DNA of 64,000 nt from Callorhinchus milii (GCF_018977255.1 NW_024704758.1:2604001-2668000), one strand, 5' to 3'. Positions 24,005 through 60,722 are shown, numbered from the stretch's first letter. The notes: a model not told the origin generated them from the sequence alone. Translations and numbers: made by a program.

Positions 24005-24382
24005 GTCTGTCGGTCTGTCCCATATGGGAGGACTCAAGCTCCCGTAACCAGAAAAATAATACCTCATATTAATTTAAGCATTTTTCAATATAGCTCATCA
24101 ACAATAGGAGATCGCCCCCACTCCCACCCCAAACATGCCCAGGACACTGCCAGATGCAAGACCTTTCCGATGGGGTGTAAATCGTGTCTCTACCTCGATC
24201 GGTTATTGGGTGAGTGTCGGATACACTGACCCACAGACAGACAGACAGACAGACAGACAGATTTTATTAGTATAGATTACGATAATAAACCTTGCATTTG
24301 ATATCGTGCTTTTTATCACATTGCAGCAGCTTTTCCGTGAAGTGTAGTGACTGCTGCNNNNNNNNNNNNNNNNNNNNNNNNN

Positions 24383-24947
24383 TGAATGAGTGTGTGTGAG
24401 TGAATGAGTGTGTGAGAGAGTGAGTGTGTGAGAGAATGTGTGAATGAATGTGTGTTTGAGTGAGTGAGTGGATGAGTGTGTGTGAGAGAGTGAGTGTGTG
24501 AGTGAATGAGTGTGTGAGAGAGTGAGTGTGTGAGAGAATGTGTGAATGAATGTGTGTTTGAGTGAGTGAGTGGATGAGTGTGTGTGTGAGAGAGTGAGTG
24601 TGTGAGTGAATGAGTGTGTGAGAGAGTGAGTGTGTGAGAGAATGTGTGAATGAATGTGTGTTTGAGTGTGTGAGTGAATGAGTGTGTGAGAGAGTGAGTG
24701 TGTGAGAGAATGTGTGAATGAATGTGTGTTTGAGTGAGTGAGTGAGTGGATGAGTGTGTGTGTGAGAGAGTNNNNNNNNNNNNNNNNNNNNNNNNNNNNN
24801 NNNNNNNNNNNNNNNNNNNNNNNNNNNNNNNNNNNNNNNNNNNNNNNNNNNNNNNNNNNNNNNNNNNNNNNNNNNNNNNNNNNNNNNNNNNNNNNNNNNN
24901 NNNNNNNNNNNNNNNNNNNNNNNNNNNGTGTGAGTGAGTGAGTGTGA
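24383..24947. repeat. Compound GAGT/GTGT/GAAT satellite flanked and interrupted by assembly gaps (N 24358-24382, 24772-24927)
   Basis: Higher-order repeats of GTGAGAGAGTGAGTGTGTGAGAGAATGTGTGAATGAATGTGTGTTTGAGT. Confidence 0.9.
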
Positions 24948-36950: not shown

Positions 36951-39900
36951 CATTCTTGTAGCGATGAGATCAACCCTGATCAAAGGGCCTTCTTCATCTG
37001 ATCTGAATGGGAGCTTTCAGCTGATAGTTCAGGCTGATGTCACAATGCAGCGCTGGGGGAAGAACTGCATTGTCAGAGTTACAGTCCTTTGGATGAGATG
37101 TTAACCCTATGTCCTGTTCAGGTGGACACTGAAGATCCCATGGTGCTATTCAAAAAGGGAGGGGAGATTCTCTTGGCCCTCCGGCCAACAATCCACCGAA
37201 GCCGTGGCTGCTTCTGGGACATTGCGGGTGAAATGTCGCCGTACAAAATACGCAGCCACTACACTTCCCAGAAAGTCTCTGAAACACTTTGAGGCATTTC
37301 AACGTGAGATAAGAACTATATCAAATGCAAGAATTATTATCGTTATCATGTCTTGTGAAAACCGTCCAATTATCAGGATTTAGTTCGCAAGCTGAAGGAC
37401 GATTGAGACAATTTGCCAAATGTTTGTTTTTAATCATCTTTCCCTGGACCCAATGTGGTCCTTGGATTGTTACATCAGAGACAACTGTATATGATGGGGT
37501 TTCACATCAGGTGATTTCCGAGGAGGTAGAGATTCCCTCCACTAACTGCAAATAGCTTAGGCTGACCTGTGAGCTATCTGCTCCAGGAGATGGTGCTAGA
37601 GATCAGACAAGCTTCTGCTTTGCTCATTAAGAATCCCACAAAAACGGTATCAAAAGGATGTAGAAAAAAGAGATTTGAAAGATAACGATTTGCGCTTTAC
37701 ACAGTGTCTTTCATATAGAACGTCTCACGCGTGGGGTAGCATCTTGGAGCAACAACAACAACAAATTACATTTGTATAGTGCCTTTCACACCGGGAGAAT
37801 GTCCCAGTCCCAGAGGGGCTACCAAAAGAAATAAATTTTGAAAGCAGAAAGACCCTTGAATGTTCTAATAAAATTACAGAACAGGCAGGTGGGCTGAATG
37901 GCCTCCTCCTGTTCCTAAATTCCGTATTTGCTATGAACTAACTAAACTAAGCTCCAAATGAAATCTCTGAACAATATTATGTATTCTTGTAGCGCTTTAT
38001 CACTTTGAAACGCCTCCGAGGCCTTTCCAGCAATTAATTTAGCCGGAACGGTGTTAGGAGGCGTCAAAATTGGCTTCAACGATCCGAGACTGAAGAGGGC
38101 GAGAGAGGATAGAGAGACAGTGAGCTGCTGATCAATATTGACGGATCTGGAGCGATCACGCTCAATTGGGCGTATTTTTGTTGTACTGGGCTTAATTTTA
38201 ACATGTGATTAATTAATTAATTAATATGTGATTAATTTTTTAAAAATTTAAACCTGCAAAAAAAAACTTTTATTTTCTTTGAGAATACCTCTTCTTGCAC
38301 AATTTCGAAGGCGTTAACCAAAATTGGCCACTCTACAAGCCATAATATTGGGCTACTTTTTTTTGGGGGGGGGGTATGGGGTGGGGTAGGGGTATGGGGT
38401 GGGGTAGGGGTATGGGGTGGGGTAGGGGCTAGTGTTTGATTAACTTTGGGCTACCAAACCTATTTTAATTTCAGGCAAATCGTCTTTGCTGACTTCTCCA
38501 GTGATCCCTGCTGGACTGACCCTGTTGGAGGGACTCAGGCTCAGTTGGGATGTTTGTTTCTAAGTTAGTGACAGACAGACTGTTTGACATTACTGCAGTT
38601 TGCTCATCAGATCAGCTGCTCCCAACAGAGCCAGGATGGTGTTTGTGAATATGACACTCCCCCCCCCCCCCCCCACCCACATCATGTGAATGACAAGTGT
38701 TATTTGTAATAAACGTGCGTCAAGTTACCTGGGGAGCCTTGGGTGTCCTGTATATTGACTCTGAACGCTGGGTGGGGTGGACAAGTTCACTGAACCTTCA
38801 TGAAGCACCAGTTAACCAAGGCAAGGTATTTAAACCCTGTAACCAGATACAATAATGTCTGGGTACAGAGAGAAGTGGTGGGGGGTGTATGGGGGTGGAG
38901 AGATGGGGGAGGAGAGATGGGGGAATGGGGATATAGGGGGGGATGGAGTTGGAGAGAGGGGCGATGGGGTAGAGGAGAGACAGAGGAGATGGGGAGAGAA
39001 AGAAGGGATGGGGAGAGAAAGAGGGGATGGGGAGGGAGAGAGAGAGTGATAGGAACGAGAGATGGGATCTACTTGGTTTTTTCTGGATTTCCAAATCCCC
39101 CCAAAAAAAAAAATTGGCAGCAAACCACTCACAAAATTTGGAAGCCAAAGTGATTCAAAGAGTCAAATTGTAAAGCTGTGGGGGGGGGGGAGAAAAAATA
39201 GAGCAATGAGTCTTTGGGGAATGAAATCGAGAGAGAGAGAGAGAGAGAGGAAAAGAAACAGATGAGTTTAAATTGAGTTTTGTGCACAAAATAGGTGGAA
39301 TACAGGGAGTTGTGTCCGCCTTTCAGGTGTATGTGTGTGAGGTTATTTTGGGCTACTTTTCCTGTGTGCAACGTTGCGAATCTCTAGTGCTCAGAGCGCA
39401 AATAGGTGAGTGGATAAAACCCCACTTGTGCTGCTTGCAATTAACGAACCTTTTTTTTTATATAGTGCATGTGGGTGTGATTCTTGTTTAATTATTTTCT
39501 TTTAGAAAATAAACCAACATTTTTCCCCTTTCTTCTCGATTGCAATATTTCGGATAAAATGCGCTTTTCGTTAAGTGGCGACGTGTCGTGGCCCCTTTTC
39601 CTGCTGTTTAAAAGGCGTTTCATCCCCGAACCTGTCTGTGAACCTCTGTCGAAATGAATGACCCCTTTAAACGGTGCCCAGGGTTTTGCCAGCCCTTGTG
39701 GCATGGAGCCCATACAATACCATGCCAACCCGACCCTCATCACCCAGTCAGGTCCCTGGGATACAGCAACACAGCACTTGGCGTTTTATGCAACAGTAAA
39801 TGACCCACACCCCAGACATTACAGGTCAGGGTGAAACCTTAGGCGAGTTTCCTTACTCCGCGCACGCCTCTGTTTGCCTCGCAGTAAGGAAGAACCCAGT

Positions 39901-45690: not shown

Positions 45691-48600
45691 ATGTCTATCG
45701 ATGGGTTGCCATGCAGATGCCTTCTTTCCATGAGCGATGTGCACAACTTCATCCAGTCCTGTATGATCGCGGTGGGGACAAAGCCAAACCACGCCAAGGA
45801 CCTGGCAGATGTGCTGGTGGACGGTGACAACAAAGGTCACCTCAGCCACGGACTGAACAGACTAGGTAGGTTGATCGGTGACTAAGAATCCTTTACAGTA
45901 TCTCCCTGTGCTACGATCGCCATTAACGCAAAGCGTTCGATTTGCTTTCTCCGCCTTTTGCAAACCCCTCCTGCTCACTTTCTTCCTCCTCACCTCGTCT
46001 CCTGGCAGTGGAGGGAATGTGGGTGTCTCCAAACCCATACCACAAAGAACGTTGACATTCTCCAGATCATTTTCCCTTCCTTCTCCATCTTCCAGTTGCG
46101 CCTGAAGACCTTCCTCTCCGACCGTGCTTACGGTCTCCTTCCCACCCCCCCCACCCTTCGCCTTACCCTCCACCCCCGCTTTGGTGTTGTGTTCTGCCAC
46201 TGATAAGCACTCCGGGGCACTACCCTGTGTGAGAGGCGCTGTGTTGTTGTTGAGTGCCTGTGCTGGAACAAAGCCAGTCATTCTTAAAAGATATACTCTC
46301 TACAACCTTTTGATTTCGTGCTCACTCCCGCCAACGCTTGCATTTCAGACATGTACGTGAACGATATCAAGTCAGGGATATGTGCCAAAGAGGGAGAGCC
46401 GGTCATCTCAAAGTCAACAGTGGCCACGACCCTGGTGGATGGCAAGAACCTGCTGGGGCCGGTGGTGGGCAACTTCTGCATGAAGCTGGCCATCTCGAAA
46501 GCCAAGGATGTGGGCATAGGCTGGGTGGTTGCCCACGGTGAGTGTCGAGATTTATCCTAAAAAAATGAGTTATATTTGGCCACTTGTTCCCTCCCCCCCC
46601 CCCATCTCCTCGTACCCCAACTCCCTCGAGATCAATTGACCACCCACCCTCTCCCCACTCTGCCCACTCGTACTGCCAGACTGATCAACAACCGCTAGAT
46701 GGTCTCCCTAATGTTCCCAGCTCTCACTGCCCACAACTCGGCTCAAAAACTGAACGTACGTTCTGGTTGCAGGCTCCAACCATTTCGGGGTGGCCAGCTA
46801 TTACTCTATGCAGGCTCTGAACCACAAATTCATCGTAAGTACAACAGCTTAGCACCCATCCACCCGCAACTCTATTCCGTGCGTTGACGCGTCTTTCTTG
46901 CCGCTCGGAGACTCATTCCTTTGTTTCGTCTATTGCTCTCGAAAGGGGATGAGTTACACAAACACCTCTCCGTTGGTCGTGGCAACCAGGGCAAAAGAGG
47001 TAACACGTTCTGTCTTATAATGCAACAGAAAAGTCTCTCTTCGTCGAGTTTTGGTTCGTCCGCTCCCGTACCAGCTCCGTGAACCCCCCACCCCAACCTT
47101 GCCCGGCTTCACTGGCTCCCCATCCCTCAGAGGTTCAGGGTTAAAAATCCTCGTCCTCACTTTTAAAGCCCTCCACTGCTGCGCTCCTCCCTACCTCTGC
47201 GACCAGGTTCATATGTAAACACCACATCAACCTGTCCACTCCCCCCGCTCAGCGGGCACTGACCTGCTTCATGGTCCCTTACCTTCCCTGCTCCACCGTG
47301 GTGGTCAGACCTTCAGCTTTTCTGTCCCCAGCCTCTGGAACTCCATTCAGGAATGAATCGCTCTGCCTTGCCCCCTCCTTTGCCTCCTTCAAGGCCCCTC
47401 TCAAGACCTTCCTCTTTGATTGCCCTTTCAGCCACCCTCCGCTCCTCTCAATTCCAACCCCAACTCCTAACTGTCCAGCGCCTTCGGAAGTCCTCCCGAC
47501 ATGAAAGGCGCTGCTGTTGTTGTAATTTTGTTGTTGCTGTTGTGCATTGCCACATTTACCCGCTGTCTGTTGCTCACGGCAAGTGTACTCTCGGGACCAA
47601 TCCTATCAGTGTTGCTGCCCCGGCCAAGGACAAGAACAACTTTGTTCTGGATATGGCAACATCAGCCGTTGCTTTGGGAAAGGTGAGTGAAGAGGGAAAG
47701 ACAAACATGGTGGGGGAAGGAAAGAGAGAGGGACGTTGCTTAAATTTAACTGAAATAAATCAAACACCAGGTCAAACTGCTCGCGTCAGAAATTAGTCAA
47801 TAACAGGTCAATAATACTAATAATAATATTAACAATAATCCTTGCATTTGATATTGCATTTGATATAGCGCCTTATCACGTCTTCTAGACCTCTCGATGG
47901 CAAGACAGGAGCTCGCGCTGTTTTTCTTTTTCTTTGTCAGTGACATATAAAATAATATTGTTTACCCACCTTGGCAACAATACAAGAACATTTTGCAAAA
48001 CTCAGGCCACGCCTGTCACAGATACAGTTGCCGTATAATTATAAAATGTGCCGTGAGCTGTGCGGTTGTTTGTTTGTTATCATGTCACGCAGTTCACAGG
48101 TTTATAGGCTCCAACTCTAGTCTGCACCGAGCTTACCGTATATTCTGCGAAGCGCTTTAAGGCATGTCAACGCCCAAAAAGGCGCTGGATCAAATGCAAG
48201 GATTATTATTATTATTAATTGTTCTGATGCCCCTTTGCCGCTAGGTGGAGCTCCAGCACAGACGAGGGGAAAAGATGCCCTTGGGCTGGGGGAGCAATGC
48301 TGAAGGGAAAGCAAGCAATGATCCCGCCGAGATCCTGAATGGTGGGGGGCTCCTACCCATCGGGGGGCTGGAGACTACAGGTAAGAAGCGACTTCTACAA
48401 GCAGGTCTTAGCTACGACGCACAAAAAATTAAACAGGCTCTTCGCTGGTCTTTTTGGTCTAATCTTTTTTCTCTCATGCCAATTTTCTCCTTTCCTCTCT
48501 TGAAGGAGTTTATGACTCCCCCATCCTCCCCCACCCATCCACTTGGACACTATCCCAAATCAATCACATTCCCAGTTTGGGACGCTAAGAATCAACATGG

Positions 48601-51600
48601 AGCAGTCCCAGGTGCAGAATAGTCCCGTAAGTCAAGTCCTTGGAGCACTCGCCTGGCAAGCGAGAGGACGCGGGTTCGATTCCCGGGCAGGGTGAAACGT
48701 TAGGCAAGTTTCCTTACTCCACACGCCTCAGTTTACCCAGCAGTAAGTAGGAACCCAGTTGTTAGCCGATTGGCAGATCACGTTTCTGGGGGTAATAATT
48801 CCTTCAAAAAAAAGTCGCTCAATCCACGACTGTTTGGCTGCTGCGTTTCGCCAATATACAGTCGGTTCACTTTACAGTCTATTCTGTGAAGTGCTTTGAG
48901 ACGTCGAGAAGATGTGAAAAGCACTATATCCAATGCAAGGATTATTATTATTATTATTATTATAAATCAGTATACTATTATTATAGATATTATAGGTCTT
49001 GAGATCAGCCATGTTCTTATTAAAGGGTGGGGCAGGCTCAAGGGGCCAAATGGCCTACTCCTGCTCCTATTTATTATGTTCTTATGTAACTAGGTTGAAG
49101 CTGTCTAAATCCATCAATCATAGCAGGAGAGTTAGACTAGATCGCTAACCCTCCCTTCCCTCCCCTCACCCATGACCATTTCCCCCCTGCTCGGGTCATG
49201 ACCCAACTGTGCAGCGCCTTGGGACGTCCTCCTGACGTGAAAGGCGCTTTATAAATGGAATCTTGTTGTTGTTGTTGTTACCAAAATAATCAGTTACTGA
49301 AGGGCAAAGGCCAAGGTGTTGGTGTATAAGCTTCTTCTATACTTTGCCATGACACAACCTTGCGTGAGGGGCGCTATATAATCGCAAATTGTTGTTGTTG
49401 CCATCCACTGAATCCACGCTCTTCCTGTTTTGCTACAAGTGTATGTTTGTGTTCATTCTGTGCCTTTGCCCTTGCACGTGAGATTGTAAGGACAGCCACC
49501 TTGTGGTGAAAACCTTCCAACTCAATTTGTTCTGATCAAGTGAAGATCGCAAGAGCGATTGGGATGAACGAGGAAGGCCCTTCGGTCCATCCGATCTGGG
49601 AATCCTTCCAGAATTTCCATTCATCTGCAAAATTAGGATTTGTTTTGTAACCTCTCCTAAACCACAAGCGAAAGACCTGGGTTCGATTCCTGGCGGGGCG
49701 AAACCTTGGGTAAGTTTCCTTACGCCACATGCTTTATAAAAATCCCTCAAGAAAAACTAAAATAATAATGTGGTCGCTTCAATCCACAACTGTTTGTGGG
49801 ACGCTGCTGTGTGCAATTGGCTGCTGCGTTTCGCCCACAAATATACAGTCAATTCACTTTACAGTATATTCTGTGAAGTGCTTTATCACGTTGTTGATGT
49901 CTCAATGACCTGATAAGGCGCTATATCAAATGCAAGGAATATTATTAATCCTAAAACCATGCCGTGCATAATACCCGGAACCAGATTTCAGGGCCCTGGA
50001 CGATGGGACCAGAATTCAGCTCGAGAGAGTCCACAATGAAGTCCGTTTGCTGCTCCTCCCAGAAAATGAACTGTTAAAACAACAAATTGCATTCATATAG
50101 CGCCCATCAAGCAGGGTTGTATCCCAGAGCTCTTGACTGTAGGGGAACATGACTCTGAGCTGGGGGAGGAAGGAGCAAGGCAGGGGGTGGTGGTGGGGGG
50201 AGGGGGGGGGGAAATAGAGGAAGAGTTTTCCAGGATTTCGGGGTGTAGTGGCTGAAAGCGCGGCCACCGTTGGTGGAACGGAAGGCACGAGGAATCGAGA
50301 AAAAAAATAATTGAGAATAAAAACGAGATCGGGGTGAAACTCATTTACCAGTTGACTTTCACCCTCCAAAAAGGGTATTTAACTGTGCACCATCAGACAA
50401 GAACTACAGTAAAACTCGCACAAGTCTGATCTGTGTAAATCATATAATCTCCTAAGTCATACATCTGGCCAGGTTCATGTTCAAGAGTTTATATTCTCTG
50501 CAGGTTTGACATAACTCATTACTTTGCACAAGTTATATCAAATGTATTATATAGCACCCCTCACGCAGGGTGGCATCTTTGGAACACGCTTCCTCTATCC
50601 CCTCCCCGCCTTGCCCTTCCTTCCGCATATTCAGGTTGTGCCTGAAGACCTTAACCTCCCCCCTCCCCCAACTCAGAGTCAACCTTAAATGGCCTTTACT
50701 GGGTGCACTTGTAAGTGACCAGTTACTTCCCATTTGCATTGGTTTTGCAGGTGGTTATAAAGGCTATGGGCTGGCAATGATGGTCGAGGTCTTTTGTGGC
50801 ATCCTGTCGGGATCACATTACAGCAAACACATCCGAGCTTGGAAGTCCCAGACCGGTCAAATTGCGGACCTGGTAAGTGGCTCCTGTGACGGGCATCAGA
50901 ACCGAGTACAAACGAGTACAGCATTGTAGTTCTTTGCATTTGGGTGAATTTCTGGAGTCCTGTAGCTTGGTGGTTCGAGTACTTGCCTCGCAAGCGAGAG
51001 GACCTGGGTTCGATTCCCGGCAGGGCGAAATGGTAAGGGCAAGTTTCCTTATTCAACACGCTTCTGTTCGCCTAGCAGTAAGTAGGAACCTGATTGTTAG
51101 TTGATTGGCGGGTCGTTTTTCCAGAGATAATAATCCCTTCAAAAAAAAATGTGGTCACTCAATCCATGACTGTTTGTGGGACACTGCTGTGCACAATTGG
51201 CTGCCGCGTTTTGCCCACGAAATACAGTCAATTCACTTTACAGTATATTCTGTGATGCGCTTTGTGACCTCTCGAAGATGCTATAAGGCGCCATATAAAA
51301 TGCAAGGATTATTATTATTTGTATGGAAGCATAAAGGGCAGATTCCCCCCCCGCCCATTACTAGCACCACTTTATCAAATCTTTCATAAATTTGAACACC
51401 TTTATCAAGTCCCCCTCTCAGTCATCTCCTCCCCAGAGAGAAAAACTCTAACCTGTCCAGTCTCTGAGATTTGTACCCACTTGTCCTTGGTAACAGCCGT
51501 TGTTCCACATGAAGGGAGAACATTTTATTACATATGACAGTTGAAGGGGAATCCATAATAGCATTTAAATCGAAATGGGATAAATACTTGTAAAGTAACA

Positions 51601-53410
51601 TTGAACGGGAGGGGTATTGGAGCAAATAGCTCAAGTGGGAAGGCAAGCTTTGGAATGGCTCGGTTTTAAACTTCTACATAATTCTACATTATTAATAACG
51701 ACTTTTAGAATTCAACCTGCAATGAACGGTATCACACATCAGTGCCAGCTCTCTGACTTGTATAGTATTATGTTTCTATCTCAGGGGCAGTGTTTTGTAG
51801 CCATAGATCCGGGGTGCTTTGCCTCAGGGTTCGAGGAGAGAATGGCCGATTTGCTCAACATTCATAGAAACCTGGAGCCGGTAAGTATCGTTAATTAACT
51901 TTCAGTGCACAGGGAAAATATGGCGATGTTTCAGGTCCCCAGTTATAAAGCTCCACCAAATGAACCAGTGAAACCGGACTGCATTTGTGGAATCCCATAG
52001 CGTAATGCTCAGAGCATTCGCCTCGCAAGCGAGAGGACCCTGGTTCGATTCACGGGCAGGGCAAAACATTGGGCAAGTTTCCTTACTCCACATGCCTCTG
52101 TTTACCCTAAGTAGGAACCTGGTTGTTAGTCGATTTACAGATCGCTTGCGGATTGCAGATTCGGGGGTAATAATCCCCCCCAGAAAAAAAATTGTCATTC
52201 ATTCCATGGATATTTGTGGGACAATACTATGCACAATTGGCTGCTGCATTTCACCCACAAAATACACAGTAAATCCACTTTACGGTTACAGTGTATTCTG
52301 TGAAGCGCTTTGAGACGTCTCGAAGACGTGATAAGGCGCTATATCAAATGCAAGGATTATTATTATATCCTGTGAAGCGCTTTGAGCTGACGAGATAAGG
52401 CTCTACCGTATATCAAACACAAGGATTATTATTACTTATACAGGGTAAAAATGGTTTAGAAAAACACTAGCTACTGTACAATTGAAACGGTACTGAATTA
52501 CTGATCCACAGTGAAGAGCCATAATGATAGATTGATATTCTCTTGGAGTCTAAATGATGTACATGTCTCCCTGCTGTGTCCTCAACAGTCTGTACCAGGG
52601 CAGGCCGTGTTGACTGCTGGAGACCCAGAAAGAGAACACATGGCAAAGTGTTCAAAGTACGGAGGAATCCCCTATCCCATTAATGTCATAAACTTCATGG
52701 TAAGTCTCCAACAATACCAGTTTACGTTCCTCTAACTAGCTTGGATTCTGGAGAACATGGGTGGTTTGGCAGACTAGGGCGACATTAGTGACCCCAAAAC
52801 GCGTATGGTTGGAGGAGAGGGGGGGGGAGTAGGGTCCTGTTGGAATTAAACCAGCAAAATTGGAATTAAACCAGCATAATTACTAGTAAGCTTCTTCCCC
52901 GCACCCCCCACACCCCGATTCCACTCTCTTTGAGGATGACAGGAACAAGCACATAAGAAACTCCCTTCTTGTTTTCCAATAGCATTGTGAGATCTTTTAA
53001 CATCTACCTGAAGAACTGGGGACTTTTCCAGTTCTTGTCTGAAGGAGTTAATTGAACAGAATGTCATGTTGGACACAGCGTCACAATATATAAAAAAAAT
53101 TGGTCACTCAATCCACGGCTGCTTGTGGTGACGCTGCTGTGCGCAAATGGCCGCCACGTTTCTGCCACAAAATATACAGTCAATCCACTTCACAGTATAT
53201 CCTGTGATGCACTTTGAGACGTCTCAAGGACGTAATAAGGCGCTATCAAATGCCAGGATTGTTATTATTATTTATTTCGAAAACTTGCTTCGAATATTTC
53301 GGTTTCTTTCTCCCGAGACTCACTGACAAACCCTGTTGCTTTTGCAGAACTCCATGGCGAAGGAGCTCGGGGTAACCCTGCTTCGCACCGATCGCACCGT
53401 CAAGCCTTAA
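45691..53410 (+). CDS. Ldh_2-family (PF02615, malate/L-lactate/sulfolactate/ureidoglycolate dehydrogenase-like, YjmC/AllD-type) oxidoreductase, about 360-368 aa; exons 45691(or 45717)-45865, 46349-46537, 46773-46834, 46946-46999, 47584-47682, 48245-48380, 50751-50872, 51785-51880, 52589-52699, 53348-53410
   Basis: All introns are GT-AG with compatible phases. The spliced protein carries family motifs GHLSHGLNRL, VDGKNLLGPVVG, GSNHFG, TNTSP, GTNPISVAAP, VLDMATS, GWG, GGYKGYGL, GQCFVAIDP and AGDPE, and ends GVTLLRTDRTVKP*. The N-terminus is uncertain: in-frame ATG at 45691, or an upstream exon spliced to the acceptor at 45717. Confidence 0.93.
47060..47545 (+). mobile_element. L2 3' fragment in intron 4 of the Ldh_2 gene
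   Basis: CACTGGCTCCCCATCCCTCAGAGG..CTCAAGACCTTCCTCTTTGA..GAAAGGCGCT and (TTG)n tail. Confidence 0.8.
50953..51318 (+). mobile_element. tRNA-derived SINE, long subfamily (further copies at about 48620-48963, 51987-52365, 54516-54843, 63364-63728 and many partial copies)
   Basis: Shared head, core and tail. Confidence 0.85.
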
Positions 53411-54006
53411 GACCTCGTCCCCGTGAGAGCCTGACGTCCATTTGTTTTTGCAACAGGGAAACGGCAAGATGTTACAGACTCACATTTTCATACAACATTA
53501 AAAAAAAATCAATCAATCTGTTCAGGTCATTAAACTTCTGTGTTTTCACAGATCTCAGGATGAACAGTTCGAATGTTTCAAACTCCACTCAGGGATCATT
53601 GCTGCACTTTTTGCTACTAGAGTGTGTTATGTTTGTAGATTTAACACGTATAGATTATAGCTCTTTCAAGGTGTGTGTTAAGGTAGCCACGTTAGTTATA
53701 TTCTGGGATAAGGCGCAGCGGAGAGTAAAATGTTTCTAAAACATTGAATACAAGCTTTTGCTCAGAACGTTTGTCTGCAGATTTCTTTCCTGATCACCAG
53801 GGTATAGGTACTTGCCCCTGGAAGTTTAGAAAGCGTTGTCTCACACTGTGACATAAAACAACAACAACTTGCATTTACGTGGCCCTCCCCCCTCATGCAG
53901 GGTAGGGTCCCAGAGCACTTGACAATGTCGCGGCACGACTCCAAGCCGGGCGGATGGGGCTGGTGTGACTTTAGGCACGGTAGAAGAGGAAGGTCTTCAG
54001 ACACGA

Positions 54007-54321
54007 CCTGTAGCTCAGTGGTTAGAGCACTCTCTTTGCAAGCGAGAGACCTGAGTTCAATTCCAGTCAGAGGGCGAAACCTTGGGCAAGTTTCCTTACT
54101 CCACACAGAGCCTAATAATAATCCCTCCAAAACCTAAAACAATAATAAATTGGTCATTTTCAATCTACGACTGTTTGTGGGACATTGCTGTGCGCAATTG
54201 GCTGCCGGGGTCGCCCACAAATATACAGTCAATTCACTTTACAGTGTGTTCTGTGAAGCGCTTTGGGACGTCCTCCCGACGTGAAAAGCGCTACATCAAA
54301 TGCAAGGATTATTATTATTAT
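54007..54321 (+). mobile_element. tRNA-derived SINE, young subfamily
   Basis: Near-identical to copies at 1786, 29439 and 58830. Confidence 0.9.
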
Positions 54322-55674: not shown

Positions 55675-58600
55675 ATGTGGGGATTTTCACGCACCGTCTA
55701 CAGGGGACTGAGATACCTGAGCCCCAATAGTGGTCACCAGATCACACTGCGAGCCAAGGTCTGGTCCAAACCCCCAGAGCACAGCCTCTCGATGATGGTC
55801 AGTAAAATCACACACACACACACTAACACACACACTAACACACAAACACACACACACACACACACTAACACACACACTAACACACACACACTAACACACA
55901 CACTAACACACTAACACATACACTAACACACACACTAACACACACACTAACACACACACTAACACACACACACTAACACACTAACACACACACTAACACA
56001 CACACAACACATAACACACACACACTAACACACACACACTAACACACACACACACACTAACACACTAACACACACACTAACACACACTAACCAGACACTC
56101 ACACAAACCGATTGGGCTCCAACCTCAAAGCAAGTGAACAGACAACGAGATTGTATTTCTTTAGAGAGTTGAGTTGCAAAGGGAGAAAGATTTGTTTAAA
56201 ATAAAACACACAGTGGGGACACTCACTACTGACTTTTTTTAAAAAAAGAAATATAAATTGTATCTATATTTTATATATATTATATGATATCGTTTATTTG
56301 CGATATCATACGGTGCAAATGTGGGGGTTTTTTTTTCAACACCGAAGAACATTTTCTGTTTTTCACACAAACACCACCACCACCGCCGGAGTGTCCGAAA
56401 ATACTGCGTTCGATCCAACAGATCCCATAAGAATTATTGCGGTGAAATAACTTTTAACGAGTTTCAAACCCATTTTATAAATGTAGACTGTGTGTGTGGG
56501 GGGGGGGGGGGGGTCAGACTGTGTGTGGGTGGGGGGGTCCAGGCTGTGTGTGGGGGGGGGGGTCCAGACTGTGTGTGGGTGGGGGGGGGTCCAGGCTGTG
56601 TGTGTGGGGGGGGGTCCAGGCTGTGTGTGTGGGGGGGGTCCAGGCTGTGTGTGTGGGGGGGGGGTCAGACTGTGTGTGTGGGTGGGGGTCCAGACTGTGT
56701 GTGGGTGGGGGGGTGTCAGACTGTGTGTGGGTGGGGGGGGGGGGGGTCCAGACTGTGTGTGGGTGGGTGGGGGGGTCAGACTGTGTGTGGGTGGGGGGGT
56801 GTCAGACTGTGTGTGGGTGGGGGGGTGTCAGACTGTGTGTGGGTGGGGGGGGGTCAGACTGTGTGTGGGTGGGTGGGGGGGGTGTCAGACTGTGTGTGGG
56901 TGGGTGGGGGGGGTGTCAGACTGTGTGTGGGTGGGTGGGGGGGGGGGTCAGACTGTGTGTGGGTGGGGGGGGGTCAGACTGTGTGTGGGTGGGGGGGGTC
57001 CAGACTGTGTGTGGGTGGGGGGGGGGGTGGCAGGCTGTGTGTGGGTGGGGGGGGGAGGGGGGGGGTCAGACTGTGTGTGGGTGGGGGGGGGGGTCAGACT
57101 GTGTGTGGGTGGGGGGGGGGGGTCCAGACTGTGTGTGGGTGGGGGGGGTGGCAGGCTGTGTGTGTGTGTGTGGGGGGGGTCAGACTGTGTGTGGGTGGGG
57201 GGGGGGGGGGTCCAGACTGTGTGTGGGTGGGGGGGGGGTGGCAGGCTGTGTGTGTGTGGGGGGGGGGGTGGGGGGGGGGTCAGACTGTGTGTGGGTGGGG
57301 GGGGTCAGACTGTGTGTGGGTGGGGGGGGGGTCAGACTGTGTGTGGGTGGGGGGGGGTCAGACTGTGTGTGGGTGGGGGGGGGGTCGCAGGCTGTGTGTG
57401 TGTGGGTGGGGGGGGTCCAGACTGTGTGTGGGTGGGGGGGGTCAGACTGTGTGTGGGTGGGGGGGGGGTGGCAGGCTGTGTGGGTGGGGGGGGTCAGACT
57501 GTGTGTGTGTGGGTGGGGGGGGTGTCAGACTGTGTGTGTGTGGGTGGGAGGGGTGTCAGACTGTGTGTGTGTGGGTGGGAGGGGTGTCAGACTGTGTGTG
57601 TGTGTGTGTGTGGGGGGGTGTCAGACTGTGTGTGTGTGGGTGGGGGGAGGGTGGCAGGCTGTGTGGGTGGGGGGTGGCAGACTGTGTGTGGGTGGGTGTC
57701 AGACTGTGTGTGGGTGGGTGTCAGACTGTGTGTGGGTGGGTGTCAGACTGTGTGTGGGTGGGTGTCAGACTGTGTGTGGGTGGGTGTCAGACTCTGTGTG
57801 GGTGGGTGTCAGACTCTGTGTGGGTGGGTGTCAGACTCTGTGTGGGTGGGTGTCAGACTCTGTGTGGGTGGGTGTCAGACTCTGTGTGGGTGGGTGTCAG
57901 ACTCTGTGTGGGGGGTGTCAGACTGTGTGTGGGTGGGTGTCAGACTGTGTGTGGGTGGGTGTCAGACTCTGTGTGGGTGGGTGTCAGACTCTGTGTGGGT
58001 GGGTGTCAGACTCTGTGTGGGTGGGTGTCAGACTCTGTGTGGGTGGGTGTCAGACTGTGTGTGGGTGGGTGTCAGACTGTGTGTGGGTGGGTGTCAGACT
58101 GTGTGTGGGTGGGTGTCAGACTGTGTGTGGGTGGGTGTCAGACTGTGTGTGGGTGGGGTGTCAGACTGTGTGTGGGTGGGTGTCAGACTGTGTGTGGGTG
58201 GGGGGGGGGTGTCAGACTGTGTGTGGGTGGGGGGGGGGGTGTCAGACTGTGTGTGGGTGGGGGGGGGTGTCAGACTGTGTGTGGGTGGGGGGGGGGGGGT
58301 GGCAGGCTGTGTGTGTGTGGGTGGGGGGGGTCCAGACTGTGTGTGGGTGGGTGTCAGACTGTGTGTGGGTGGGTGTCAGACTGTGTGTGGGTGGGTGTCA
58401 GACTGTGTGTGGGTGGGGGGGGTGTCAGACTGTGTGTGGGTGGGGTGGGGGTGTCAGACTGTGTGTGGGTGGGGGGGGGTGTCAGACTGTGTGTGGGTGG
58501 GGGGGGGGGGGGGGTGGCAGGCTGTGTGTGTGTGGGTGGGGGGGGGTCCAGACTGTGTGTGGGTGGGTGTCAGACTGTGTGTGGGTGGGGTGGGGGTGTC

Positions 58601-60722
58601 AGACTGTGTATTGGTGGGGGGGGGTGTCAGACTGTGTGTGGGTGGGGGGGGGGGTGTCAGACTGTGTGTATATGTGTGTGTTCAACACCACTGAAAAGCT
58701 GAGAGTTACAGTTCTCCATAAAAGGACAAAAACACAGCGAACGACTGAAGGTTCAGAGGTTTAAAGGGAATCGTTGTGATTCGCTTCTCCATCAGCTGCA
58801 GATTAAAGGGGTTCAAGAAGTTCAAGAAGGTGGAGTCCTGTAGCTCAGTGGTTAGAGCACTCGCTTTGCAAGTGAGAGACCTGAGTTCAATCCCAGGCAG
58901 AGGGTGAAACCTTGGGCAAGTTTCCTTACTCCACACAGAGCCTAATAATAATCCCTCCAAAACCAAAAACAATAATAAATTGGTCATTTTCAATCTACGA
59001 CTGTTTGTGGGACATTGCTGTGCGCAATTGGCTGCTGCGTTCACCCACAAATATACAGTCAATTCACTTTACAGTGTGTTCTGTGAAGCGCTTTGGGACG
59101 TCCTCCTGACGTGAAAAGCGCTTTATCAAATGCAAAGATTATTATAATTATTATTAAGTTTAGTGCAGCCCCTAAAACCTTAAAAACGTGCCCCCCCCCA
59201 AAAAAAACATAAACACCTACCAAATGTACACCCTGTTTCCAAACCAACCTAAAGTTGCCTGTCTTACCCCAATAGGTCTTGGATTAATAGATTAGTATTA
59301 ACAAATCAATTCCCCCCACCAGCCAAATTCTTCTGCTTTCTGTGGTATTATTTTACCAATTGCTTTGTACCCTTTGTGGGCATTCTTTTTTGTTGTGCTG
59401 TAAGTAGTGATGGGTGGTGGGGGGATGGGGGGGAACAGCTTTGAAAAAAAATTAAACCTGCAAAACGCCCCCCAAACCCCCCACTTGAAGACCTTTTCTT
59501 AGTTTCAAAAACACTGAACTAACCTAAATTGGCCACTCTGCTGCTACCACCACCCCCTCCCTCACCCCACATACAGTAACTGTAGGCAATGCATAATATT
59601 GGGCTACTTTGGGGTTATTAATTTGATGGATTTTCGGCTACAAGTGCTTTTTAATGTCTGGCAGTGAGCGACGGACAACTTCTTTCAATGTGAGGATTCT
59701 TAAGGGGTTAGACCTCCACCTGGAGCCGTAACAGAAAAGCCACGTCAGGTCTCTGTGGTAGACTCAGTGATCCCTTAGCCAACCCTTGCATAACTTCGAA
59801 GTCCTGTTAATGAGTAACCAGGCTACCCAACTCTTGATGACTAGAGAAGGAAGAATCAGTAAACTCCACTATGTGATGGGAATCCACTCACTCAGGTCCT
59901 GATAACTCTACAAGTCAATGCCTTAGAACAGGGTGCAGATAAAAATGGTCCAGCTAACAGTATGAAATCTTACCATTGGCTTCCAACCAGCAATTTATAA
60001 TCCTTGCATCTGATAATACAGCCTTGTCACATCATCAAATCAGAGGATTTACTATAAAGTGCAGCAAATAGATATTTTGCTGCCAACATGCACACAGCAA
60101 TGTCCCACAAAACAACAACAACCCAAATTGTATTCCTATATAACACCGTTCATGTCAGGAGGACATCCGAAGGCACTGGACAATGGAGCCGAGCTGGGGT
60201 TGGAGTTGGGAAGGGTGGGGGTTTGGAGAGTCAAAGAGGAAGGTCTTGAGACCTAATCAGGCTAAAAGCGCTAAAAGCCTGATTGCCATGAAACAGCCAT
60301 GAAGTGCAGACTGCCAGGCATTAACTAGTTACTACATTGCTGCAATACCCATTATCCAATGTAAAGGGCACTTAATGCCATATACATAAGTTGCGGTGGT
60401 TGGCTAACAGTAAAATTATAACGGAGAAAATGACAAAGTTACTCACATGTATCACTGATACGTTGAACTCCTGATAACTCAATCCTGGCTTAATTTGTCA
60501 CTACCTTTAAGTCATCGCGCGGTCAATATCCTGGCCGCATTGAGCCCTTTTCCCTTGGAGCGACGAGTTATCGGGAAGTGACTATATAATGCACCCCTGT
60601 TTGGTTTTCTATTGCAGGACCTCACCATTGCGTTCTTTGTGCTGAACATTGCAATGCTGGTGCCCAGCGGCTGGGTGCTCACTAACATGGAGAATTACAA
60701 GCACCGACCCGGCTCCAAGTGA
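55675..60722 (+). CDS. COX8B: Cytochrome c oxidase subunit 8 precursor (COX8B-like), 75 aa; exons 55675-55797 and 60618-60722
   Basis: Kozak CCACCATG. Exon 1 MWGFSRTVYRGLRYLSPNSGHQITLRAKVWSKPPEHSLSMM|gtcagt is an Arg-rich presequence plus SKPP (compare COX8A RAKIHSLPPEGKLGIM). Exon 2 reads cag|DLTIAFFVLNIAMLVPSGWVLTNMENYKHRPGSK* (compare LLPAGWILSHLETY). ATTAAA at 60827. The B-paralogue label rests on synteny. Confidence 0.9.
55809..56092. repeat. (CACACACTAA)n microsatellite in the COX8 intron
   Basis: Seen directly. Confidence 0.9.
56484..58672. repeat. G-rich minisatellite, core about 22 bp GTCAGACTGTGTGTGGGTGG(G)n
   Basis: Dozens of tandem variant units with variable G-runs; it produces the spurious 730-790 aa ORFs in all three + frames. 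Confidence 0.97.
58830..59156 (+). mobile_element. tRNA-derived SINE, young subfamily
   Basis: Near-identical to the 54007 copy. Confidence 0.9.

What the first reader, a model, noticed from the sequence alone, without database searches (positions are those of the whole stretch)
45691..53410. Intact spliced Ldh_2-family dehydrogenase embedded between the IFITM cluster and COX8
Seen: ten GT-AG exons splice into an uninterrupted ORF of about 368 aa with family motifs (H-S-H-G, NHFG, GTNP, DMATS, GGYKGYGL). Knowledge: this family (AllD ureidoglycolate dehydrogenase, YiaK diketogulonate reductase, ComC sulfolactate dehydrogenase, DpkA pyrroline/piperideine-2-carboxylate reductase) is mostly characterised in prokaryotes. 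Animal members are, as far as I know, functionally uncharacterised and absent from mammals. Inference: this is a vertically inherited (intron-rich) metabolic enzyme of unknown substrate that was lost in some lineages. In a probably urea-retaining cartilaginous fish, purine/ureide, hydroxyproline/D-amino-acid or ascorbate catabolism are candidate roles.
Basis: partly seen in the sequence, partly recalled or inferred. Interest (0 to 1): 0.75.

Follow-up and report, generated by a model that had tools for sequence, protein, structure and literature searches.

The report
Known fish dehydrogenase lost in tetrapods
This is an intact, spliced elephant-shark copy of AqE, an already described enzyme gene kept by fish and invertebrates and reported lost in land vertebrates; it is predicted to be an NAD-dependent 2-hydroxyacid dehydrogenase, but no measured substrate was found.

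Summary
Ten GT-AG exons give a 368-aa ORF without stops. Six of 7 exons tested hit PF02615, and a contig from an RNA-like run joins exons 7-8-9-10. It is not new. The protein equals Callorhinchus milii LOC103186039 over 348 aa, and the animal family was described in 2018 as AqE: present in sharks, teleosts and invertebrates, lost in tetrapods and land plants (10.1101/495713). All family catalytic residues are present. The AllD-specific residues and the DpkA NADP-binding arginines are not, so ureidoglycolate and Pyr2C roles are unlikely. It scores below every characterised-subfamily cut-off (best: ComC model, 242 of 500 bits) and sits in its own clade with no characterised member. Most likely it is an NAD(H) 2-oxoacid reductase acting on oxaloacetate- or sulfopyruvate-type substrates (inferred). 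Small additions: exon 10 corrects the database model's C-terminus, the 5' end is unresolved, and the gene lies in the COX8-IFITM block where mammalian gene lists show no such gene. The substrate is an open question, and the C. elegans homologue is reported essential.

The parts
45691..45865 (+). AqE coding exon 1 as modelled (holds S52, H53, R57); the true 5' edge may be the AG at 45716 with an upstream exon
46349..46537 (+). exon 2 (Y61); 100% identical to C. milii LOC103186039 protein
46773..46834 (+). exon 3 (NHFG, H125)
46946..46999 (+). exon 4 (TNTSP first-shell motif)
47584..47682 (+). exon 5 (GTNP, DMATS)
48245..48380 (+). exon 6
50751..50872 (+). exon 7 (GGYKGYGL, K242, W269)
51785..51880 (+). 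exon 8
52589..52699 (+). exon 9 (G322-D-P-E325, cofactor-selecting position)
53348..53410 (+). exon 10 coding part with stop; missing from the database protein model, which reads into intron 9
53411..54031 (+). likely 3' UTR (contigs that begin at the exon-10 acceptor run to 53744 and 54031)

Best explanation
This is the elephant-shark AqE gene, an intact spliced member of the Ldh_2 (type-2 malate/lactate, sulfolactate-dehydrogenase-like) family, predicted to work as a homodimeric NAD(H)-dependent 2-hydroxyacid dehydrogenase, likely reducing small acidic 2-oxo acids such as oxaloacetate or 3-sulfopyruvate. Shown: gene structure, splicing of exons 7-10, family, and conservation of catalytic and cofactor-binding residues. 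Inferred from AllD, DpkA and YiaK: NADH binds in extended form between the domains with the nicotinamide held by H53 and P167; R57 anchors the substrate; H125 (or H53) moves the proton while hydride passes on the B-face; P324/E325 in place of DpkA's two arginines favours NAD over NADP. Least certain: the substrate, taken from the best-scoring characterised relatives (ComC, then Veillonella malate-lactate transhydrogenase), both of which use oxaloacetate.
For: Residue map on E. coli AllD: S43, H44, R48, Y52, H116, T156, P158, D174, K224, G306 correspond to S52, H53, R57, Y61, H125, T165, P167, D183, K242, G322. H53, Y61, P167, D183, K242 and G322 are in 20 of 20 core animal rows; R57 and H125 in 19 of 20. 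Residue roles are from PMC3527362 (sections 6, 7, 9, 10). Fold: the top Foldseek hits are all this family, best E 5e-29. phmmer bits: PH1277 225.7, ComC 185.1, Entamoeba 3I0P 185.0, 1VBI 147.3, AllD 127.3, DpkA 122.7, HcxB 115.8, YiaK 91.2; MLTH 174.3. The best NCBIfam model is sulfolactate dehydrogenase. ComC prefers NADH and reduces sulfopyruvate > oxaloacetate >> 2-oxoglutarate (PMC5695019, part 2 of 3).
Against: No animal member has a measured activity in anything I found. The score against the ComC model is 242 of a 500 cut-off. The AqE clade (99/98) contains no characterised enzyme and the backbone is unresolved; ComC, PH1277, DpkA and YjmC were not in the tree. First-shell positions differ from the neighbours: S150 where MLTH has E and AllD has D and ComC has E (alignment), plus a clade-specific W269 (19 of 20) and R267 (18 of 20), so the substrate may be something else. 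The model has pLDDT below 50 over 149-165 and 255-278, the substrate-pocket loops. Loss of the C. elegans homologues showed no reproducible effect on anaerobic (rhodoquinone) survival (PMC8659336 passages), which gives no support to a hypoxia role.
Confidence: 0.5

Rival explanations
1. An NAD(H) 2-hydroxyacid dehydrogenase with a substrate unlike that of any characterised subfamily, for example a metabolite-repair or amino-acid-catabolism 2-oxo acid.
For: Own clade without a characterised member; clade-specific pocket residues N56, T149-S150, R267, W269; below all five NCBIfam cut-offs; a presumptive null of the C. elegans homologue is lethal although worms have two ordinary MDHs.
Against: No positive evidence for any specific alternative. 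The nearest characterised relatives use oxaloacetate.
Confidence: 0.3
2. A malate-lactate transhydrogenase like Veillonella Vpar_1595: tightly bound NAD, ping-pong transfer between malate/pyruvate and oxaloacetate/lactate without free cofactor.
For: MLTH belongs to the same family (PMC13034625, parts 1-3 of 4 and supplement). It is 34% identical, 174 bits, above AllD, HcxB and YiaK, and shares the longer loop before KGYG that ComC, AllD and 1VBI lack. It would explain why a third MDH-like gene is not redundant.
Against: MLTH groups with Entamoeba 3I0P and clostridial proteins (100/99), not with AqE. The loop is widespread among uncharacterised members. First-shell S147-E148 in MLTH against T149-S150 here.
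Confidence: 0.08
3. Ureidoglycolate dehydrogenase of purine/ureide breakdown, linked to urea retention.
For: Shares the universal catalytic residues with AllD; 127 bits.
Against: AllD S140, D141, M251 and R259 align to T149, S150, W269 and A277 (the last two lie in a gappy stretch). AllD models score 174-181 bits against cut-offs of 496 and 356. AllD falls in another clade. The gene is kept in teleosts and invertebrates that do not retain urea.
Confidence: 0.05
4. NADPH-dependent Pyr2C/Pip2C reductase (DpkA-like) or 2,3-diketogulonate reductase (YiaK-like).
For: Same fold and histidines.
Against: P324/E325 stand where DpkA has R314/R315, mapped through AllD D308/Q309. Among the lowest scores in the family: 122.7 and 91.2 bits; the YiaK model gives 142 of 316.
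Confidence: 0.05

Closest known systems
AqE (aquatic enzyme), bioRxiv 10.1101/495713; database entry C. milii LOC103186039 / A0A4W3HN10
   Same: It is this gene: identical to the database protein over the first 348 aa and 66% identical to an Ictalurus furcatus protein annotated as malate dehydrogenase; the paper defined AqE on I. punctatus and lists chondrichthyans as carriers.
   Different: The database model ends in intron 9. The true C-terminus comes from exon 10.
ComC sulfolactate dehydrogenase (M. jannaschii, PDB 2X06; NF040650)
   Same: Best-scoring characterised structure (185 bits) and best NCBIfam model; catalytic residues; no arginine pair at the 2'-phosphate position.
   Different: Far below the cut-off (242 of 500); lacks the loop before KGYG; E against S at the AllD-141 position; animals make no coenzyme M (established knowledge).
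Veillonella malate-lactate transhydrogenase Vpar_1595 (PMC13034625)
   Same: Same family, 34% identity, same loop, same catalytic residues.
   Different: Separate clade; different first-shell residues; bound-NAD mechanism not testable here.
PH1277 (PDB 1V9N) and Entamoeba 3I0P
   Same: Top sequence and structure matches.
   Different: Annotated as malate dehydrogenase by homology only (stated in 10.1101/495713); R at the AllD-141 position.
C. elegans F36A2.3 / VF13D12L.3
   Same: Described as the nematode 'archaeal-type third MDH' absent from mammals; other nematode proteins fall in the AqE clade.
   Different: The null is lethal in the worm; no such data seen for fish. F36A2.3 itself was not in my tree.

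Membership tests
Ldh_2 / PF02615 (sulfolactate-dehydrogenase-like superfamily) | Profile match over the curated cut-off | tested here: met
   3 single exons exceed 38.8 bits; 6 of 7 given hit in order
Ldh_2 / PF02615 | Two invariant histidines and conserved cofactor residues (AllD H44, H116, T156, P158, D174, K224, G306) | tested here: met
   H53, H125, T165, P167, D183, K242, G322
Ldh_2 / PF02615 | Three-domain non-Rossmann fold | tested here: met
   Model pLDDT 75; the listed Foldseek hits with E <= 0.001 are all family members, TM 0.62-0.70
Ldh_2 / PF02615 | Homodimer with NAD(P)H-dependent activity | not testable with these tools
   needs purified protein
AqE (animal clade) | Orthology with fish and invertebrate AqE | tested here: met
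   66-70% identity to six fishes; vertebrate clade 100/98, animal clade 100/100
AqE (animal clade) | Transcribed and spliced | tested here: met
   Contig joins exons 7-8-9-10; exons 1-6 not seen in the rows shown
AqE (animal clade) | Absent from tetrapods | tested here: inconclusive
   No tetrapod among the named rows of the 120 listed (of 135) hits, but the search is word-limited and many rows are unnamed; the claim rests on 10.1101/495713 and PMC8659336
ComC sulfolactate dehydrogenase (NF040650) | Score over the equivalog cut-off | tested here: not met
   242.3 vs 500
ComC sulfolactate dehydrogenase (NF040650) | Sulfopyruvate reduction with NADH | not testable with these tools
   assay needed
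AllD ureidoglycolate dehydrogenase | S140/D141 (with M251, R259) and model cut-off | tested here: not met
   T149/S150, W269, A277; 174 vs 496 and 181 vs 356 bits
DpkA Pyr2C/Pip2C reductase | Arg314/Arg315 pair for the NADP 2'-phosphate | tested here: not met
   P324/E325, mapped through AllD D308/Q309; DpkA itself not aligned there
YiaK diketogulonate reductase; HcxB | Model cut-offs | tested here: not met
   142 vs 316; 168.5 vs 336
Malate-lactate transhydrogenase (MLTH) | Falls in the MLTH clade | tested here: not met
   separate supported clades; backbone open
Malate-lactate transhydrogenase (MLTH) | Bound NAD, activity without free cofactor | not testable with these tools
   assay needed

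The most novel reading that the evidence does not exclude
AqE is an animal malate-lactate transhydrogenase, a bound-NAD enzyme so far known only from Veillonella. Fish, invertebrates and nematodes would then couple lactate and malate pools without free NADH, by an enzyme that is essential in C. elegans and was deleted from the COX8-IFITM block on the way to land.
Probability: 0.08. Interest if true: 0.75.

Novelty: already known. Interest (0 to 1): 0.27.

Why it matters
The gene and its loss pattern are known, so the finding itself adds little. The open question is real: a conserved animal enzyme with no measured substrate, reported lost independently in tetrapods and land plants, and essential in C. 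elegans, where it was proposed as an anthelmintic target (PMC8659336). This work narrows the candidates (NAD, not AllD, DpkA or YiaK), adds the 2026 transhydrogenase as a testable option, and gives a corrected C-terminus for anyone expressing the protein.

Tried and rejected
Pseudogene or chance ORF: rejected. Bacterial contamination or recent transfer: rejected by nine introns and the vertebrate clade.

Neighbourhoods of the nearest prokaryotic relatives: the genome scan used animal-type patterns and returned only 20 distant loci at 27-32% identity, which were not used and did not enter the tree. The nearest tree neighbours have no organism names and generic annotations. The one annotated closer relative (Peptoclostridium, 37%) has no informative operon.

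Copy number in the own genome: no assembly held. Upstream exon: tblastn with 12 homologues found none. The best donor (39405) is in frame but has no ATG; unresolved. No run is on record as RNA (no RNA holder listed), and contig depth was not used for expression level or tissue.

Literature: searches for AqE (13, 16), gene names CG10512/F36A2.3/YjmC/PF02615 (26; one search was swamped by an unrelated word), Ldh_2 + vertebrate (10), type-2 MDH (53), ComC (57) and tetrapod loss (85) found no enzyme assay of an animal member. Subscription journals are not searched. Follow-up AqE papers that I recall could not be read, and the bioRxiv supplement was not seen. Earlier scan notes: none. No complex prediction was run.

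Full report
Observation. The ten exons are at 45691-45865, 46349-46537, 46773-46834, 46946-46999, 47584-47682, 48245-48380, 50751-50872, 51785-51880, 52589-52699 and 53348-53410. All nine introns are GT-AG, and the chain translates to 368 aa without a stop, carrying the five named motifs. None of 20,000 random chains of the same lengths was stop-free. Pfam PF02615 hit 6 of the 7 exons I gave it, in profile order; exon 9 gave no hit and exons 3, 4 and 10 were not given. A 480-base contig of run X4 covers exons 7, 8, 9 and 10 in one piece with no mismatch, and a contig of X5 holds exons 7 and 9 with the length of exon 8 between them. These runs are only guessed to be RNA, and joints of exons 1-6 were not among the rows shown.

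Identity. Exon 2 is 100% identical to a protein named Callorhinchus milii LOC103186039 (A0A4W3HN10). My model equals it over the first 348 residues; the database model then reads into intron 9. The 5' end is less sure. Fish orthologues begin a few residues before an R-C/Y-L motif, and an AG at 45716 would put a phase-2 intron inside that arginine. The best upstream donor, at 39405, is in frame but has no ATG. Several invertebrate orthologues have long N-terminal extensions that look like mitochondrial presequences (my reading).

What is known. bioRxiv 10.1101/495713 (whole text read; supplement not seen) describes this family as AqE. It reports the gene in teleosts, chondrichthyans, invertebrates, algae and fungi, lost in lungfish, tetrapods and land plants, and grouping with sulfolactate-dehydrogenase-like enzymes; no activity was measured. 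PMC8659336 (passages) calls the nematode genes a third, archaeal-type MDH absent from mammals, finds a presumptive F36A2.3 null lethal, and finds no reproducible role in rhodoquinone-dependent survival. A YjmC-like protein was detected in barramundi skin mucus (PMC13030388, one passage). My own sample agrees weakly on distribution: no tetrapod among the named rows of 120 listed hits. The searches listed under Tried and rejected found no assay of an animal member. I recall later AqE papers on non-tetrapod vertebrates but could not read them.

Mechanism. Mapped on E. coli AllD, whose residue roles come from PMC3527362 (sections 6, 7, 9, 10), the protein keeps S52, H53, R57, Y61, H125, T165, P167, D183, K242 and G322. 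AllD R48A and H116A are inactive, and their equivalents R57 and H125 are in 19 of 20 core animal rows. It is therefore very likely an active enzyme using the family chemistry: extended NAD(P)H, a histidine acid-base and B-face hydride transfer (inferred). At the two positions where DpkA has the arginines that bind NADP's 2'-phosphate, it has P324 and E325, which predicts NAD(H). The AllD-specific S140 and D141 become T149 and S150; M251 and R259 align less securely to W269 and A277. The predicted structure (pLDDT 75, pocket loops below 50) matches only this family.

Substrate. By score the nearest structures are PH1277 (225.7 bits), ComC (185.1) and Entamoeba 3I0P (185.0), ahead of AllD (127.3), DpkA (122.7), HcxB (115.8) and YiaK (91.2). 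All five NCBIfam models stay below their cut-offs; the best is sulfolactate dehydrogenase at 242 of 500. ComC prefers NADH and reduces sulfopyruvate and oxaloacetate (PMC5695019, part 2 of 3). In 2026 the Veillonella malate-lactate transhydrogenase was shown to belong to this family (PMC13034625, parts 1-3 of 4 and supplement). I retrieved a natural 379-aa protein carrying all five motifs I checked from it (L038); it scores 174 bits and 34% identity.

Trees. I built a quick tree of 113 rows (90 of 149 representatives kept; 59 partial or oversized ones dropped) and a careful tree of 60 of those rows. Both place the gene in an AqE clade (99/98 in the careful tree) with no characterised member. 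MLTH groups with Entamoeba and clostridial proteins (100/99), AllD lies elsewhere, and the backbone is open. ComC, PH1277, DpkA and YjmC were not available for the tree. Clade-typical residues around the pocket (N56, T149-S150, R267, W269) differ from all characterised neighbours. Best guess: NADH-linked reduction of oxaloacetate- or sulfopyruvate-type acids (0.5); a substrate of its own (0.3); transhydrogenase (0.08); AllD-like (0.05); DpkA- or YiaK-like (0.05).

Surroundings. Upstream lie four IFITM second exons and three first exons; downstream lies a two-exon COX8. Mammalian gene lists for this block run PSMD13, COX8B, NLRP6, PGGHG/ATHL1, IFITM (passages of PMC10804543 and PMC2610647) and name no Ldh_2 gene. 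This fits loss from a conserved block, but I did not test it on genomes. Nothing suggests a functional link with the neighbours.

Verdict. A real, intact gene, already annotated and already described as a family with this loss pattern. Novelty: already known. Interest 0.27, kept above the floor because the substrate is unknown, the worm homologue is essential and the candidates are now easy to test.

Noticed in passing
window 52699-53410: The database protein A0A4W3HN10 ends by reading into intron 9. Spliced contigs and shark homologues support exon 10 as the true C-terminus.
   Followed up: yes
window 39405 and 45716: A strong splice donor 6.3 kb upstream would join in frame to an AG inside modelled exon 1, giving the N-R-C-L start seen in other fish, but that exon has no in-frame ATG.
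   Followed up: partly
window 5126-32494: Four IFITM second exons (7723, 17962, 26004, 32351) but only three first exons found; the missing one may lie at the N gaps 24358-24927. The last gene has the ARDQK start that I recall from IFITM5.
   Followed up: partly
window 55675-60722: Two-exon COX8 (75 aa) in the position of mammalian COX8B relative to the IFITM cluster. No NLRP6 or PGGHG was noticed between them, but no profile search was made.
   Followed up: partly
P0001 and P0121: Proteins of about 780 aa; the horseshoe-crab one holds two tandem AqE copies. This could be a real fusion or a gene-model artefact.
   Followed up: no
tree, 16 long-branch rows such as P0164, P0167, P0175: Divergent proteins inside the animal branch often lack catalytic residues (H53 in 8 of 16, H125 in 9 of 16), suggesting non-enzymatic paralogues.
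   Followed up: no
L041, L056, L057 and similar loci: Relatives of the Veillonella transhydrogenase at about 69% identity or less occur in metagenome contigs, and a Peptoclostridium protein (L029) and the Entamoeba 'MDH' 3I0P group with it. These are candidates for transhydrogenases outside Veillonella.
   Followed up: partly
window 56400-58700: Long GT-rich tandem repeat inside the COX8 intron (GC 0.60, strong G skew).
   Followed up: no
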